Positions 54,001 to 60,000 of a stretch of DNA of 64,000 nt are shown piece after piece (position 1 is the stretch's first letter; every line of letters starts with the position of its first letter). The DNA lies in NCBI GenBank assembly GCA_040255165.1, contig JBDZUK010000012.1, positions 1-64,000 of the forward strand, written 5' to 3'. The DNA is from Nitrospiraceae bacterium. GTDB lineage: Bacteria > Nitrospirota > Nitrospiria > Nitrospirales > Nitrospiraceae. The position numbers were made by a program.

Positions 54001-57000
54001 CCGGATGAGAAAACTTATTAAGAATAGGTGAAATCTCTCCCTCCCTCTATACTCTCTTACGGGCATAGGCTTTGCTCAACGTAGGCGAGATATTCGGCGG
54101 CGTCACGGGTTGCCGTAGGGTCAAAAAAGGCCTTCTTAGTTGATAAGTACCGAGGAGTCACCCATGAAGATCCATCGTCCCTGCGGCATCCGATTGGCTT
54201 TGCTGGCTGCCGTCCTTTTGTGTGTGGGCCATTTGAGTGGTCCTGCGGCGTATGGAGAATCCTACATCGGCGGACAATTCGGTTTGACGCTACCGTCCAT
54301 AGGAAAAGGGTTGACCGATACGGATTTGACCGGCAGCTTCGTATCGGGCTCGACCCTCTCCGACCAAGCTCTTAAGACCTCGATGCTCTATGGTATGAAA
54401 GCGGGTCATTACTTTAAACGACTGCCATGGCTGGGCATTGAAGCCGAAATCTACAACACCACTCCACACATCAAACAGCAGTCCCTCACCTTTAGCGGAC
54501 CGTCCGGTCCGGTTGGTTCGCTGAACTTCCCTGGTTTGAATCTACGCGTCCTCACCCTTGCGCCGCTCAACGTCACGTTCCGCTACCATAAGACGAGGCT
54601 TCAACCCTATGTTGCGGTTGGCCCGGGAATATTCTTCGCCCGGATTAAGGATCCCTCGATCAGCTCCGATAACTCCCAGTCCAGCACCAAGCTTGGCATC
54701 AATGCTCAAGCCGGCCTTCGCTACTACATTACGCGGCGAGTGACCGTATTCGGGGAGGCAAAATACAATCACGTGCGATTCAATTTCCCCGAGACACCTC
54801 CGGGACCGAACTTTAACCTCTTTGGCTTTGAAAGTACTTATAATATGGTGCACGTGTCGTTCGGCATGAATTATCATTTCTAACCGCCTAGCACGCTCGC
54901 GTTCCGTGATCCGTGTGCCTGTCTCGACACCGTGCACGCCAACCAGGTACCATCCCGCTGGTTGCGCCGGATGGTCAGCATGAAAACCTGCCCCACTTGC
55001 AGCCGTCAACTCCCCGAGGTCAGCCGTTACTGCACCCAGTGCGGACAACGGCTGGATCAAGCACCGGGCGCTGCGCAGCCCGGTGAGTTGAACATCCAAG
55101 TACTCTATGGGATGGTCGCCGTCCTAGCCCTGGCCCTCCTCTTTCCTCCCTGGGAAACACCTCCGACACAGCAGCCCGAATTCCTCGGCATGCATTTCAT
55201 CCTGAATCCCCCGACTCCCGACGCGGTCGTCAGCCGCCTCCTGCTGACGGTCGAGCTGGTGACAATCGCCATCGCCGGATTGTATGGCTCGTTCCTCTTC
55301 CGCAAGAAATAGTCTTTTCCCTCTTCCTACTTTCGGGATAGGACCGCTATCACGACTGCTCACAATCCCCGTTCAACGAGGCCGTAGGCGGGTCAACAAC
55401 CGGAGGCGTACCCTCTGGGGTACGTCGAGGATCGTTGCGAGCCGAGAACGCCGTTGGCGGGGATCTTCAGCAGTCGACCGAGGCAACTTCAGTCGAGTGC
55501 AAGCGTGAGGCATTTGGCCGATCCGCCGGACTTCATGAACTCGTCCAGCGGCACCGGGTGTGGTTGGTATCCGCGACGGAGCAGTTCCGCCGCGGTCTCG
55601 GGGCAGCCCGTCGGCAGCACGACATGTTTGCCGACACACACGGCATTGCAGGCAAACCGCAGCGCTTCGTGCTCCGGAACGATCAGACGGCGCGAAGCTC
55701 CGATGCGTTCGGCGATGACCGCCTGCGCGTAACGATCGAAGGCGGGAGGAAAGTACATCAAGTCACCGCCGCTGAGCGGACAGAAACAGGTATCCAAGTG
55801 GTAGAACCGGCTATCGATCAATTCAAGCGGGATGACTTCTTGATTGAACAGGGCGCTGAGGACGGGGAAGGCGCGAATTTCGGATCGTTGCCGATAGCCG
55901 CCGAACCAGCCGTCGGAAAATCCGAGCAGATCTCCTGCGCCCTCAAAGTAGAGTCCCGGCTCAAGAGTGACGACCTCATACCCATGAGCGCGGAACCACT
56001 CCTCAAAGTAGGCTTCCTCGCGCCGTCGCTCGGGATACCGGAACCGGCTGGGCACTGCCCGCGTCCCGGCCACCACACCCGCGTTGGCCGTGAATACGAG
56101 ATCCGGCAGCCCCGGAACAGGAGTCATGCGCTCCAGCAAAACACCGACATCCTCCTCGAACACCCGCATCAACTGATGCCATTGCCGAGCGGCGGCCTCC
56201 GGGTTCACCCGGTTTGCCAAACGCATCCACGGGTTGATTTCGTACTCGATCCCGAAGTAGTCCGGTGGACACACGAGTAAGCGGCTCATGGCTTCCATCC
56301 CAGCTCGCGCGCCAGCTCCCGTAGGAACGACGCGGCGTCCATCACCATCCCCACCGCCTGGAAACTGCCTCGGTCCGCCAGCTTCGTCGGCACCGCGGGG
56401 TTCACGTCCACGCAGACCATCGGCACGGTGGCCGGCAACAGATTGCCGGTCGCAACCGCGTGCAGCGTGCTGGCGACCAGGAGCGCCAGGCCGACTCCGG
56501 GAATCGCGCTCCGCATCGCCGCTTGCGCCGCCATGCTGTCCGTGATGACGCCGGGCAGCGGCCCGTCGTCGCGGATGGTGCCCGCCATGACGACGTCGAC
56601 TGATTTCCTGACACAGGCCGCCATGATGCCGTTCTGGATCACTGCCGATTCTACCGCCGTCTTGATGCTGCCGATCGCGCGAATGCGGTTGATGGTGCGC
56701 AGATGGTGTTCGTGTCCGTGGGGAACCGCCCGGCCAGCCGACAGACCGTATCCGAGCGACGTGCCGTACAAATCCGCTTCCAAATCATGCGCGGCGAGCG
56801 CATTGCCGCAGAACAGGACATGGATGAATCCCTTTTCAATCAACCAGGTCAACGCCTCACGGCCTCCTGCGTGGATGATAGCCGGCCCACCGGCCAGCAA
56901 CACTTTGCAGCCCGGGATACCCTGGCTCTGTTCCTCTCGCAGATGCTTCATGCGCCGAGCCACATCCACGATAATGTGGGTATGCGGCCGTTCGGCGGAC

Positions 57001-60000
57001 ACCTGAGATTCCATGAACCCGAACACGTCCCGTTCCTTCGGGCGCGCAAGCGGCACAACCCGCACTCCGCGCCGGCCTGTCACGATCAAGTCGTCTCGGA
57101 TGACAGCGGCCATCGGAACGGCGGTGGCCCGGAGCCGGCGGTCGTCCACTTTGATGCCCACGTCCATTTCGATCCCTTCCACGTCGATCCACTGACCTTT
57201 GACGCGGATTTGGGTGGGCAAGTGAGTGGTGGCGTAAAATGCCTCCGGAAAGATCCCGTCGGCCGGCGCGAGCTCCAGCGAGCAATCGTCCTCGCGCTCC
57301 ACCGACGCTCCATGCGGCTGAATCGCCGCCAGAATGTCCTTCAGCAGAGAAACGGAGGACGCTCTCACCACGATGCGAGCTGAAGAAGGCTCTTCTCTCG
57401 TCACCCCGATACGAACATCCGTTAGGTCGAACGTCCCGCCCATCATGAGAATCGTGTCGAGCACCTTGGCAAGAATGAGCGAATCGATAATGTGGCCTTG
57501 TAGGACGACGGTATCGTGAGCTTGGTCCATGTCGATCCTCTTAGCTCCTCGAATCCAACACCCGGGGCTGGACAAATTTTACCATGGAACCTCCCGCGAC
57601 TGAGGCCCGGCCCCCTAGTCTGCCTTCATCAGTTCCCGCAGCACATTGGTGGCGTAGGCCCCGGGCACAAGCGCGAAGCTGAGAGTCAAGACAGATCCGT
57701 TCAACGACCACTGCAAATCCATCAGCTTGGCGCGGAGCGAGCGCCGTTCACCGCGAAAACCGCATTGCTTGGCCGCTTGGGTCAGCGCTTCCGGCGTCGT
57801 TCCTTCGGCTTCCACCACCGCCCGTTCAACGGCGCCCGGTTCACCGGTCGCCCAGGACACCCGCGAGCCGAACAGAATCCCCGTCGGGCTGATCTCAAAT
57901 CGGTCGGCCCGCGGCTGCTCCGCGGCCGCATTTTCCACCGGGAAACACGCTCCATTTTCCATCTTCATCGCCCAATCACCCTCCAGTACCCGGTCCACCC
58001 TGTCGATCCGCCGCGCCAGGATCGCGTTGAACAGATGGGATTGGTAGCTGTTCAAGTACCAGATACGCTGAGATCGGCTCATGCGGCCGCGGCGAACCGA
58101 ATCCCTCAGCAACGCCGCGCCAAGTTCATAATTCCGCCCGGCCCGGCCCTGGCGTTGCGGCCCAAAGAAATTCGGCACACCCCGGCGCGCCAGGACCTCC
58201 AACACCGCGGGGACTGTTTCCCCAGCGTGCGGAGCGACGTCCCGAACGATCAGTCGGAAAACATTGCCCGCATGGTGCCCGGTGCGGAGACGGTTTCGAT
58301 GCCGACCCAGCACCTCGATCGCCAGGACGTGCTCGTCGATCCGAAGGGCCGCCGCTCGATCCGCGGACACACCGTGCACGGACACCAGCTGCGTCGTCAG
58401 AGCTTGCGCATCTTTCAGCCCCGCGACCCCGATCGATTGAGCCTTGATCCCCAACATCCCCGACAACCGTTGCACCAACTGCGGCGTGGACAATCCTTGT
58501 TTCGTCACACGAAGATACAGGTGTTCGCCTTCCCCGCATGGGAGGTAGAGCGGCCGCTCATCGACTCGAAAGTCCTGCGGCACGGTTTTGAAACGACCGC
58601 CGATGCCCGGATAGGCGGCACTCAAGAACGGCAAATTTGGATTCACGTGACATTGTCCGGTCTCTCGAGGAGAGACCGCTCCTCATGGTATACTTTTTGT
58701 TATGCGTGTCCCTCGATCGCCGTCATCCTCTCCCGCGAACGTCCCTGTCATGATTCTCGCCGCCGTGGCGTTTTGTATGTCTCTCCTGCAACCGGCCGAT
58801 GCCGTGCCACGCGATGAGGTGTTCCGGCTCTTCACACAGCATATCCAACGACAGGTCGATTTTGACAAAGTGGCCTTCGCGCAAGCCAGTGCCTGCACCA
58901 ACTGGTTCTACAAGCAACAACAACACAAGCCCTCTACGCCGGAGGTCCAGGGCGTGCGATGGAGCGGGCAGCGTCCTCCTTCTGATGCCGAGCCTCGTCT
59001 GATATTGAACGCCGCGGACTGCCGGCGCTTGTATCCCCGCGGGCTGGACAGCGTCCGGGACGACTTTCAGAGGACTCAATCCTCATTGTCCCTCAGCCTC
59101 ACTTTCTACGAGTTCGCGCTGGTGGGCGACCGCGACGACAACGACCAGTACAGCCCCGCCGAGCTTCGCGACGTGCTCCGCTCGCTCGATCTCTCCTACG
59201 ACGCANNNNNNNNNNNNNNNNNNNNNNNNNNNNNNNNNNNNNNNNNNNNNNNNNNNNNNNNNNNNNNNNNNNNNNNNNNNNNNNNNNNNNNNNNNNNNNN
59301 NNNNNACCCACCATGAGGTCTCTCGGCTGACCTGCCGTCATTCCGCGCTGGCGGGTCGCCGCGCGATTCACCTTACCGATTTGCACCTCGACCGATACCA
59401 GCCGCGCCACGACAGAACGGCGTCGATCATCGGTGAATTGGAACCCGACTGGATTTTCATCACCGGCGATCTCCTCAACGTGCCGGACGGTCTGCCGCAC
59501 CTGTTCCGATTCCTCGGTAAATTGCGGGAGATCGCCCCGGTGTTTATGACGCTGGGGAACCACGATCACTACAGCGGCGTCCCGATCGACACCTTCGTCG
59601 AGTGGGCGGATCGGCACAAGGTGATGTTGCTCATCAATCAGGTCGTATTCGTGCCGACCGACGCGGGAGAATTGGCCGTCGCCGGTGTGGATGATCCGTC
59701 CCTCCATCGAGCCGATTTGCGTTGTCTGCCGTGTCCCGCCGCCACCCGGTTCACCCTCTTGCTGGCCCATGCACCGAGCATTCTCGACCAACTCCACGAT
59801 GCCCATGGAGTCGATCTCATTCTGTGCGGTCACAGCCACGGCGGCCAATGGCGGGTGCCGAACGTGCCGCCGTTCTGGCTTCCGCCCGGATGCAACGGTC
59901 GGAGCGCCGGGTATCACGAGGAGAAAGGATGCCGCATGTACGTCAATCGAGGCCTGGGATGGTCGGTACTGCCACTGCGCTGGAATTGCTCGCCGGAGAT

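What a model noticed while it worked through the whole genome (the two positions that open the first line are those of the whole stretch)
55489..57530. Split cyanobacterial-type arginine dihydrolase pathway (AgrE/ArgZ) in a nitrifier
The two halves of cyanobacterial ArgZ/AgrE are encoded as two overlapping genes in reversed order (ornithine cyclodeaminase, then arginine dihydrolase), and putA is present. This predicts arginine to proline to glutamate with release of ammonia in most Nitrospiraceae.
Evidence so far: g03497 matches the dihydrolase domain of Sll1336 (E 3e-74) with INPWM, VFTAN, EGAGD, HLDTCF and the C-terminal Cys kept; g03498 bears ArgZ-like_C domains, in 80% of the family vs 4-6% of bacteria. 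Locus in 9 of 17 order genomes, 5 of 5 Nitrospiraceae. Searches 167, 169; PMC9239080 has no 'arginine'.
(Added by a program. Inside this text positions count along the whole contig: contig position 1 is position 1 of the stretch shown here. "Call 12" and the like, gene names such as g00115 and contig names such as C1 are that model's own, and its searches are not shown. The text may have been shortened before it was handed on; [...] marks where a part breaks off. The agent that wrote the report below was given it as the finding of a first reader that could run no searches.)

Follow-up and report, generated by a model that had tools for sequence, protein, structure and literature searches.

The report
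Unfused arginine-to-proline gene pair in Nitrospira
A nitrite-oxidising bacterium carries, as two overlapping genes, the two enzyme types that cyanobacteria fuse into one protein, and they likely break arginine down to proline and ammonia using a probable nickel cofactor; the same unfused pair occurs in several other bacterial phyla, so the enzymes are known kinds and only the arrangement and hosts appear undescribed.

Summary
Confirmed: an ornithine cyclodeaminase gene (57530-56286, over the TIGR00300 cut-off) overlaps by ATGA an arginine-dihydrolase-like gene (56289-55489) that keeps the residues matching AgrE Asn71 and Cys264. All 128 of 151 family genomes holding both have them adjacent in this order, including 23 of 24 amoA-bearing genomes. 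The pair is lost as a unit, mostly with putA (putA missing in 12 of 17 pair-less against 7 of 128 pair-bearing genomes). Best reading (0.7): arginine to ornithine to proline to glutamate, releasing three NH4+; no activity was tested. Two corrections. It is not a split cyanobacterial gene: the same unfused order occurs in 36 of 78 non-Nitrospira loci (Planctomycetota, Verrucomicrobiota and others), and trees reject nesting among cyanobacterial ArgZ. The scan found this pair twice before on other Nitrospira DNA. New variant of a known kind; interest 0.4.

The parts
56286..57530 (-). ocd: ornithine cyclodeaminase of the TIGR00300 / AgrE C-terminal type, 414 aa, predicted nickel-pincer (NPAD) dependent
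   Evidence: TIGR00300 454.3 bits, cut-off 410.8; PF04455+PF21571+PF21570; best PDB match 3c2q E 3.5e-89, AgrE E 1e-85
55489..56289 (-). adh: stand-alone arginine-dihydrolase-like enzyme, 266 aa (alternative start 56298); E116, H164, D166, C260 and N69 kept
   Evidence: E 3e-74 to ArgZ, 4e-71 to AgrE; NF052232 284.6 bits, under its cut-off of 450; residues invariant in 119 of 119 close homologues
56286..56289 (-). ATGA overlap of the ocd stop and the adh start (translational coupling, inferred)
   Evidence: sequence; the two matches lie within 12 nt of each other in 106 of 128 family genomes
51975..52856 (-). larB, nickel-pincer cofactor biosynthesis (true start probably near 52772); nearby but in another transcription unit
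   Evidence: NF033503 286 bits, cut-off 175
50016..51281 (-). larC, nickel insertase (true start probably near residue 25 of the ORF)
   Evidence: TIGR00299 176 and NF052512 142 bits, both over cut-off; PF01969
53943..53972 (-). perfect sigma-70 consensus (TTGACA-18-TATAAT) ahead of gpsA-larB, separating these genes from the ocd-adh unit
   Evidence: two plus-strand genes lie between adh and gpsA
57615..58646 (-). truD, upstream neighbour and one border of the block from which the pair is deleted in some relatives (context only)
   Evidence: PF01142; synteny

Best explanation
These are two adjacent, overlapping genes for an AgrE-type ornithine cyclodeaminase and an ArgZ-type dihydrolase, which likely work together to turn arginine into proline with release of three ammonium ions and CO2, after which PutA likely oxidises the proline to glutamate. 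Step 1 (inferred from homology and kept residues): the 266-aa enzyme attacks the guanidino carbon with Cys260, aided by His164/Glu116, and hydrolyses twice to ornithine + 2 NH4+ + CO2. Step 2 (inferred from family membership): the 414-aa enzyme cyclises ornithine to proline + NH4+ by a hidden hydride transfer, probably on a nickel-pincer adenine dinucleotide made with LarB, LarE and LarC, all encoded in this genome. Step 3 (inferred): PutA gives glutamate, NADH and quinol, which is useful to a nitrite oxidiser that otherwise pays for reductant by reverse electron flow. The likeliest role is nitrogen and reductant salvage from internal or scavenged arginine. Shown here: gene anatomy, residues, distribution, co-loss and trees. 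Not shown: any activity, expression, cofactor binding or arginine uptake.
For: Residues: N69 and C260 align with AgrE N71 and C264 (counted on the alignment); the deposited ArgZ chains 6juz and 6jv1 carry Ser at these two places and 6lrh is titled 'AgrE C264A mutant with L-arginine'. D63, N69, R88, E116, D120, R135, H164, D166, C260 are kept in 119 of 119 close homologues and, but for one E-to-D at 116, in 118 of 118 fused proteins. The cyclodeaminase passes the TIGR00300 cut-off; its best PDB match 3c2q is listed as nickel ornithine cyclodeaminase Q6LXX7 in a supplement of PMC13524815. Coupling: 128 of 128 genomes with both genes have ocd then adh within 262 nt; both are cleanly absent between truD and the zinc-ribbon gene in 5 of 5 pair-less genomes where both borders were in view (G004, G011, G018, G114, G150). 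putA missing in 12 of 17 pair-less against 7 of 128 pair-bearing genomes, while larC is missing in only 2 of the 17; good-quality genomes only: 5 of 7 against 3 of 104. Full-length putA lies directly upstream (L196) or divergent (L218) of the pair in two unrelated genomes. larC is present in 38 of 38 OCD-bearing genomes of the phylum sample and 50 of 50 tested genomes outside Nitrospira. proB and proC are present, so the cyclodeaminase is not needed to make proline. AgrE-PutA pathway and stoichiometry: PMC8262935, whole text.
Against: The dihydrolase scores 284.6 bits, far under the NF052232 cut-off of 450, and 235 on the actinobacterial 'dimethylargininase' model NF045659 (cut-off 300). The same residues are kept in most of 148 distant representatives and in actinobacterial ddaH-labelled proteins, one of which sits behind an arginine deiminase gene, so they mark a wide clade and do not fix the substrate. 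Pair-less genomes are small (1.3-3.3 Mb) and related, so joint loss with putA may partly be streamlining. putA is adjacent in only 2 of 80 outside loci. No cyanophycin synthetase over cut-off in 5 of 5 genomes tested, so the cyanobacterial arginine store is lacking; no dedicated arginine transporter was identified (APC permeases of unclear substrate, also in pair-less G114). larC is also in 106 of 163 OCD-less genomes of the phylum, so its presence is necessary-looking but unspecific. AgrE was crystallised with NAD+ (PDB title). G058 keeps adh alone, family f12 has an adh-like gene in 9 of 11 genomes without OCD, and 20 of 42 outside genomes have OCD without an adh match.
Confidence: 0.7

Rival explanations
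1. The hydrolase is a citrullinase or acts on another guanidino/ureido compound that yields ornithine; the cyclodeaminase still makes proline.
For: Score under the arginine dihydrolase cut-off. A related actinobacterial protein lies between an arginine deiminase and an ornithine-type monooxygenase gene, where citrulline would be the natural substrate. ArgZ is recalled (not read) to pass through citrulline.
Against: No arginine deiminase was seen: tblastn with the adh protein finds only itself in the genome (a PF02274 search was not run). The protein is nearer to ArgZ/AgrE (about 47-50% identity) than to ddaH-labelled proteins (38-41%).
Confidence: 0.12
2. The pair mainly supplies proline (osmolyte, stress or protein synthesis) from arginine or ornithine and does not serve catabolism to glutamate.
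For: Cyclodeaminases of this family stand without the dihydrolase in 13 of 13 Actinomycetota genomes tested and in the archaeal controls; putA is on another contig here.
Against: proB and two proC copies are present; putA tends to be lost with the pair and neighbours it in L196 and L218.
Confidence: 0.1
3. The hydrolase is a dimethylargininase (DDAH) that salvages methylated arginines.
For: Pfam DDAH_eukar hit (E 8e-7), NF045659 235 bits, and many database names.
Against: PMC11659421 (passages) states that DDAHs have Lys two places after the catalytic His where ADIs have Asp; this protein has Asp166. DDAH structures match only at E 1e-7 against 1e-74 for ArgZ. DDAH makes citrulline, which the neighbouring cyclodeaminase is not known to use.
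Confidence: 0.04
4. History rival: the two genes arose by fission and reordering of a cyanobacterial argZ/agrE acquired by Nitrospirales.
For: About 50% and 40% identity to the fused halves; for the hydrolase, a clade of Nitrospirales plus all fused rows is not rejected (p-AU 0.395).
Against: Fused cyclodeaminases form their own branch (100/100) and Nitrospirales sit among unfused proteins of other phyla (99/99); nesting with named cyanobacterial proteins rejected (p-AU 0.0003); Nitrospirales plus fused cyclodeaminases rejected (p-AU 0.025); same unfused order in 36 of 78 loci of other groups. The cyclodeaminase tree is rooted on one long branch, so whether an ancient fusion or an ancient fission came first is open.
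Confidence: 0.05

Closest known systems
AgrE (Alr4995, Anabaena) and ArgZ (Sll1336, Synechocystis), bifunctional arginine dihydrolase / ornithine cyclodeaminase (NF052231), with PutA
   Same: Both halves are homologous over their whole length; catalytic Cys, His, Glu and Asn71 positions kept; PutA in the genome.
   Different: Two proteins, reverse gene order, no cyanophycin synthetase found, separate branch in both trees.
Stand-alone archaeal ornithine cyclodeaminase of TIGR00300 (Methanococcus maripaludis Q6LXX7 / PDB 3c2q; MJ1480), reported to bind nickel-pincer adenine dinucleotide (Desguin 2025, seen only as cited in PMC13524815)
   Same: Over the family cut-off, best PDB sequence match, larB/larC/larE in the genome and no LarA.
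   Different: Bacterial, coupled to a dihydrolase gene; host has proB/proC, so a biosynthetic role is not required; cofactor binding untested.
Stand-alone arginine dihydrolase homologues (Coxiella CBU_0279 in bioRxiv 10.64898/2026.05.14.724635; NF045659 actinobacterial 'dimethylargininase')
   Same: Single-domain protein of the same clade; the preprint also infers an ammonia-releasing arginine-to-proline route from two separate genes (passage).
   Different: There the two locus tags are far apart and the type of cyclodeaminase was not checked by me; here an overlapping pair with a TIGR00300 enzyme.
Guanidinase/urease route of comammox Nitrospira inopinata (PMC11410670)
   Same: A guanidino compound as source of ammonia in Nitrospira.
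   Different: Ureohydrolase fold, makes urea, shown not to act on arginine (passage), and encoded with its own permease; the pair here has no transporter beside it.

Membership tests
Bifunctional ArgZ/AgrE (NF052231) | One polypeptide of about 700 aa, dihydrolase N-terminal, cyclodeaminase C-terminal | tested here: not met
   Two ORFs in reverse order; 281.9 and 357.1 bits against a cut-off of 1025; same layout in 128 of 128 family genomes
Arginine dihydrolase domain (NF052232) | Score at or above the curated cut-off of 450 | tested here: not met
   284.6 bits; 0 of 201 phylum genomes pass
Arginine dihydrolase domain (NF052232) | Cys-His-Glu triad of the superfamily (PMC11659421) | tested here: met
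   C260 aligns with AgrE C264; H164 and E116 invariant; the His and Glu assignments are by motif
Arginine dihydrolase domain (NF052232) | Asn at AgrE/ArgZ position 71 (its role as dihydrolase determinant is recalled; papers not held) | tested here: met
   N69 aligns with N71; chain 6juz has Ser there
Arginine dihydrolase domain (NF052232) | Arginine to ornithine + 2 NH3 + CO2 in vitro | not testable with these tools
   needs an enzyme assay
TIGR00300 nickel-pincer-dependent ornithine cyclodeaminase | Score over the equivalog cut-off (410.8) across the whole model | tested here: met
   454.3 bits, positions 5-404 of 407
TIGR00300 nickel-pincer-dependent ornithine cyclodeaminase | Domain set PF04455, PF21571, PF21570 | tested here: met
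TIGR00300 nickel-pincer-dependent ornithine cyclodeaminase | larB, larC, larE in the genome | tested here: met
   all three over cut-off
TIGR00300 nickel-pincer-dependent ornithine cyclodeaminase | NPAD bound; nickel-ligating residues | not testable with these tools
   Desguin 2025 not held, so the ligand residues are unknown to me
DDAH (dimethylargininase, Pseudomonas/human type) | Lys two residues after the catalytic His (PMC11659421) | tested here: not met
   H164-L-D166
NF045659 actinobacterial dimethylargininase | Score at or above 300 | tested here: not met
   235.1 bits; ddaH-labelled rows form a separate branch, 100/100
Cyanobacterial ornithine-ammonia cycle with cyanophycin store | Cyanophycin synthetase | tested here: not met
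   only partial matches far under cut-off in 5 of 5 genomes (no control genome passed the cut-off either)
Cyanobacterial ornithine-ammonia cycle with cyanophycin store | Arginine biosynthesis from ornithine (argF, argG, argH) | not tested

The most novel reading that the evidence does not exclude
Arginine is an unrecognised ammonia and energy source for nitrifiers: comammox Nitrospira (pair in 23 of 24 amoA-bearing genomes) could grow on the three NH4+ released per arginine, and nitrite-only Nitrospira could ammonify arginine for ammonia-oxidising partners while gaining reductant through PutA, all through a nickel-pincer enzyme that is near-core in the family. The widespread unfused ocd-adh unit would be the older form from which cyanobacterial ArgZ/AgrE was fused.
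Probability: 0.15. Interest if true: 0.72.

Novelty: new variant of a known kind. Interest (0 to 1): 0.4.

Why it matters
It gives a concrete, testable route for organic-nitrogen use in the most widespread nitrite oxidisers and comammox bacteria, next to the known urea and guanidine routes. It names a likely client for the nickel-pincer cofactor in Nitrospira, most of which lack LarA (21 of 151), which implies a nickel need apart from urease and hydrogenase. It shows that the AgrE chemistry is not cyanobacterial property: a two-gene version runs through Nitrospirales, Planctomycetota and others, and offers separate small enzymes for studying each half. The enzymes themselves are known kinds, so the surprise is moderate.

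Tried and rejected
Key papers not held: ArgZ and AgrE structure papers and Desguin 2025; what I say of Asn71's role, of the citrulline intermediate and of the wide spread of dihydrolases reported by Zhuang et al. is recalled. Desguin 2025 may already show this gene neighbourhood; I could not check. Ten literature searches listed no paper describing the pair in Nitrospira; main texts of PMC9239080, PMC10203281 and PMC9714041 have no 'arginine'. Proteomics supplements of PMC11410670: no hit for enzyme names in 13 of 15 files searched; the tables use protein ids, so expression is undecided. Five of the supplements of PMC13524815 were not searched. Sequencing runs: no RNA holder listed. Idea that larB/larC form one operon with the pair: rejected (opposite-strand genes between, own promoter, kept after loss of the pair, far away in family f2). 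Idea that a conserved aldo-keto reductase is the NphT-like second cofactor client: its best PDB matches are ordinary AKRs and 9YEB was not among the 60 shown, motif not mapped, left open. Neighbours of 80 outside loci showed no recurrent transporter or arginase (114 flanking ORFs). The one fold job modelled the G245 homologue (first row of alignment A1), not the window's protein; it matched AgrE (TM 0.80) and adds little. No complex prediction was run, as binding is not claimed and halves of a solved fusion tend to pass by likeness. Trees used 110 and 74 rows (FastTree) and hand-picked subsets of 32 and 34 rows (IQ-TREE, LG+G4); fused rows were 18 of 120 hits; no archaeal sequence was available.
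Full report
Observation. The first passes the cut-off of TIGR00300, which NCBIfam names 'ornithine cyclodeaminase, nickel-pincer nucleotide-dependent' (454.3 against 410.8 bits), bears the three ArgZ C-terminal Pfam domains and matches 3c2q, AgrE and ArgZ at E 4e-89 to 2e-82. The second matches the N-terminal domain of ArgZ and AgrE at E 3e-74 and 4e-71 and DDAH structures only at about 1e-7. It scores 284.6 on the arginine dihydrolase model (cut-off 450) and 235.1 on the actinobacterial dimethylargininase model (cut-off 300), so it passes neither. The host is a nitrite oxidiser by gene content: NxrA-like gene, no amoA match, Nitrospira names among the closest homologues.

Active site. On the alignment with AgrE, N69 falls on N71 and C260 on C264; the deposited ArgZ variants 6juz and 6jv1 carry Ser at exactly these places, and 6lrh is the C264A mutant with arginine. 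D63, N69, R88, E116, D120, R135, H164, D166 and C260 are kept in 119 of 119 close homologues and nearly all of 118 fused proteins, 35 proteins of outside pairs and 148 distant representatives. Asp166, two places after the catalytic His, is the position where DDAHs have Lys (PMC11659421, passages). This argues against a true DDAH, but the residues mark a broad clade and do not by themselves fix arginine as the substrate. That Asn71 decides dihydrolase activity is recalled from papers that are not held.

Distribution in the family. In one even sample of 151 genomes each gene was found in 131; 128 hold both, and in all 128 the order is ocd then adh within 262 nt, in 106 within 12 nt. Seventeen have neither; in the five where both borders were in view the pair is cleanly missing between truD and the zinc-ribbon gene; these belong to four genera. 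G058 has lost ocd alone. putA is missing in 12 of the 17 and in 7 of the 128, while larC is missing in only 2 of the 17, so incompleteness does not explain it all; in good-quality genomes the figures are 5 of 7 and 3 of 104. The pair-less genomes are small and kin, so this is not a statistical test. Of 24 amoA-bearing genomes, 23 have the pair (G009's ocd is cut by a contig end, G122's is in two pieces). In the phylum sample TIGR00300 occurs in 38 of 201 genomes, only in families f1, f2 and f3, and adh follows ocd in 11 of 11 loci checked outside f1.

Beyond Nitrospira. None of the 80 had the reverse order or a fusion, which partly reflects the query. Of the 42 without an adjacent adh, 22 have one elsewhere in the genome and 20, including all 13 Actinomycetota, gave no match. 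L196 reads putA-ocd-adh on one strand and L218 has putA divergent from the pair. Fused proteins are not only cyanobacterial: source names include Pedosphaera and Chthoniobacteraceae. Stand-alone adh-like proteins are common: 651 clusters at E under 1e-30, most of the 150 listed being 250-300 aa.

History. In cyclodeaminase trees the fused rows form one branch (100/100) and Nitrospirales another (100/100) inside a set of unfused proteins (99/99); forcing them together is rejected at p-AU 0.025. In hydrolase trees Nitrospirales are again their own branch; nesting with three named cyanobacterial proteins is rejected (p-AU 0.0003), a sister position to all fused rows is not (p-AU 0.395). So the genes are not fragments of a cyanobacterial argZ. 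Whether the fusion is the derived state is likely but unproven: the only outgroup is one long branch.

Cofactor. PMC13524815 (passages, sections 6, 7, 10 and one supplement row) reports that an ornithine cyclodeaminase uses a nickel-pincer adenine dinucleotide (citing Desguin 2025, not held) and lists Q6LXX7/3c2q as a nickel enzyme. This genome has larB and larC 2.6 and 4.2 kb downstream of adh, larE on C74, and no LarA match. larC is in 123 of 128 pair-bearing family genomes, within 8 kb downstream in 94 of the 98 where both share a contig, in 38 of 38 OCD-bearing genomes of the phylum sample and in 50 of 50 outside genomes tested (the first 50 of 78 loci), against 6 of 14 controls. Against reading too much into this: larC is also in 106 of 163 OCD-less genomes of the phylum, larB/larC stay in place when the pair is deleted, larE is kept in 5 of 5 such genomes, LarA is found in only 1 of the 17, and gpsA-larB has its own perfect promoter. 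The closeness is therefore a conserved chromosome block, and the cofactor must have at least one more client in these bacteria.

Role. proB and proC are present, so the cyclodeaminase is not the needed proline source. No cyanophycin synthetase was found. A separate arginine decarboxylase and agmatinase on C8 point to polyamine synthesis. Three APC permeases exist, none assignable to arginine. By analogy with AgrE-PutA (PMC8262935, whole text) the pair most likely converts arginine to proline with three NH4+ and one CO2, and PutA carries on to glutamate; for a nitrite oxidiser this would recover nitrogen and give NADH and quinol (inference). Confidence 0.7. Use of outside arginine as an ammonia source for nitrification is the bold reading (0.15); the guanidinase of N. 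inopinata does not act on arginine (PMC11410670, passages), so this pair would be the candidate.

Novelty. Both enzyme kinds are known, each also as a stand-alone protein (3c2q; Coxiella CBU_0279 in a 2026 preprint, passage). I found no paper on the two-gene unit or on its presence in Nitrospira, but the three papers most likely to mention it could not be read. The scan reported the same pair and the cofactor link twice before on other genomes; I had written down that reading before seeing those notes. Verdict: real, new variant of a known kind, interest 0.4.

Noticed in passing
G004, G011, G114, G137, G150 (loci L048-L051, L056, L063-L067): Small genomes (1.7-2.7 Mb) keep larB, larC and larE although they have neither LarA nor the cyclodeaminase; larC is in 106 of 163 OCD-less Nitrospirota genomes (LarA not searched outside the family). 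An unknown nickel-pincer client is implied.
   Followed up: partly
G000:C40:1239-2090 (L073) and L069-L072: One aldo-keto reductase is kept in 5 of 5 genomes tested, about 9-10 kb from larE in two; best PDB matches are ordinary AKRs; NphT His/Lys motif not mapped.
   Followed up: partly
window 53943-53972: Perfect 12/12 sigma-70 consensus ahead of gpsA-larB.
   Followed up: no
L140 (G158) and family f12: An adh-like gene stands alone in 9 of 11 genomes of a Nitrospirota family without TIGR00300, on a long separate branch.
   Followed up: partly
G000:C8:5637-10914 (L042): Deoxyhypusine/homospermidine-synthase-like gene, aldehyde dehydrogenase, pyruvoyl arginine decarboxylase and agmatinase cluster: a second arginine-consuming (polyamine) route.
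   Followed up: partly
G000:C105:1756-2571 and C147:122756-123538: Two proC copies in the 3 pair-bearing genomes tested, one in the 2 pair-less ones.
   Followed up: no
L224, L227 (plasmids NZ_CP010990.1, NZ_CP108633.1): Proteins annotated 'dimethylargininase' keep the Asn and HLD motifs of ArgZ and sit in NRPS clusters or between arginine deiminase and an ornithine-type monooxygenase; they may supply ornithine and be misnamed.
   Followed up: partly
G122:C22:696039-697347; G016:C200:1885-2701: ocd (G122) and adh (G016) are matched in two pieces, probably frameshifts or assembly errors.
   Followed up: no
L168, L185, L187: Loci labelled Alcaligenaceae, Chitinophagaceae and Kuenenia fall deep inside Planctomycetia in the tree; possibly misbinned contigs.
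   Followed up: no
window 23785-23884 and 59206-59305: Two runs of 100 N; neither touches the finding.
   Followed up: yes
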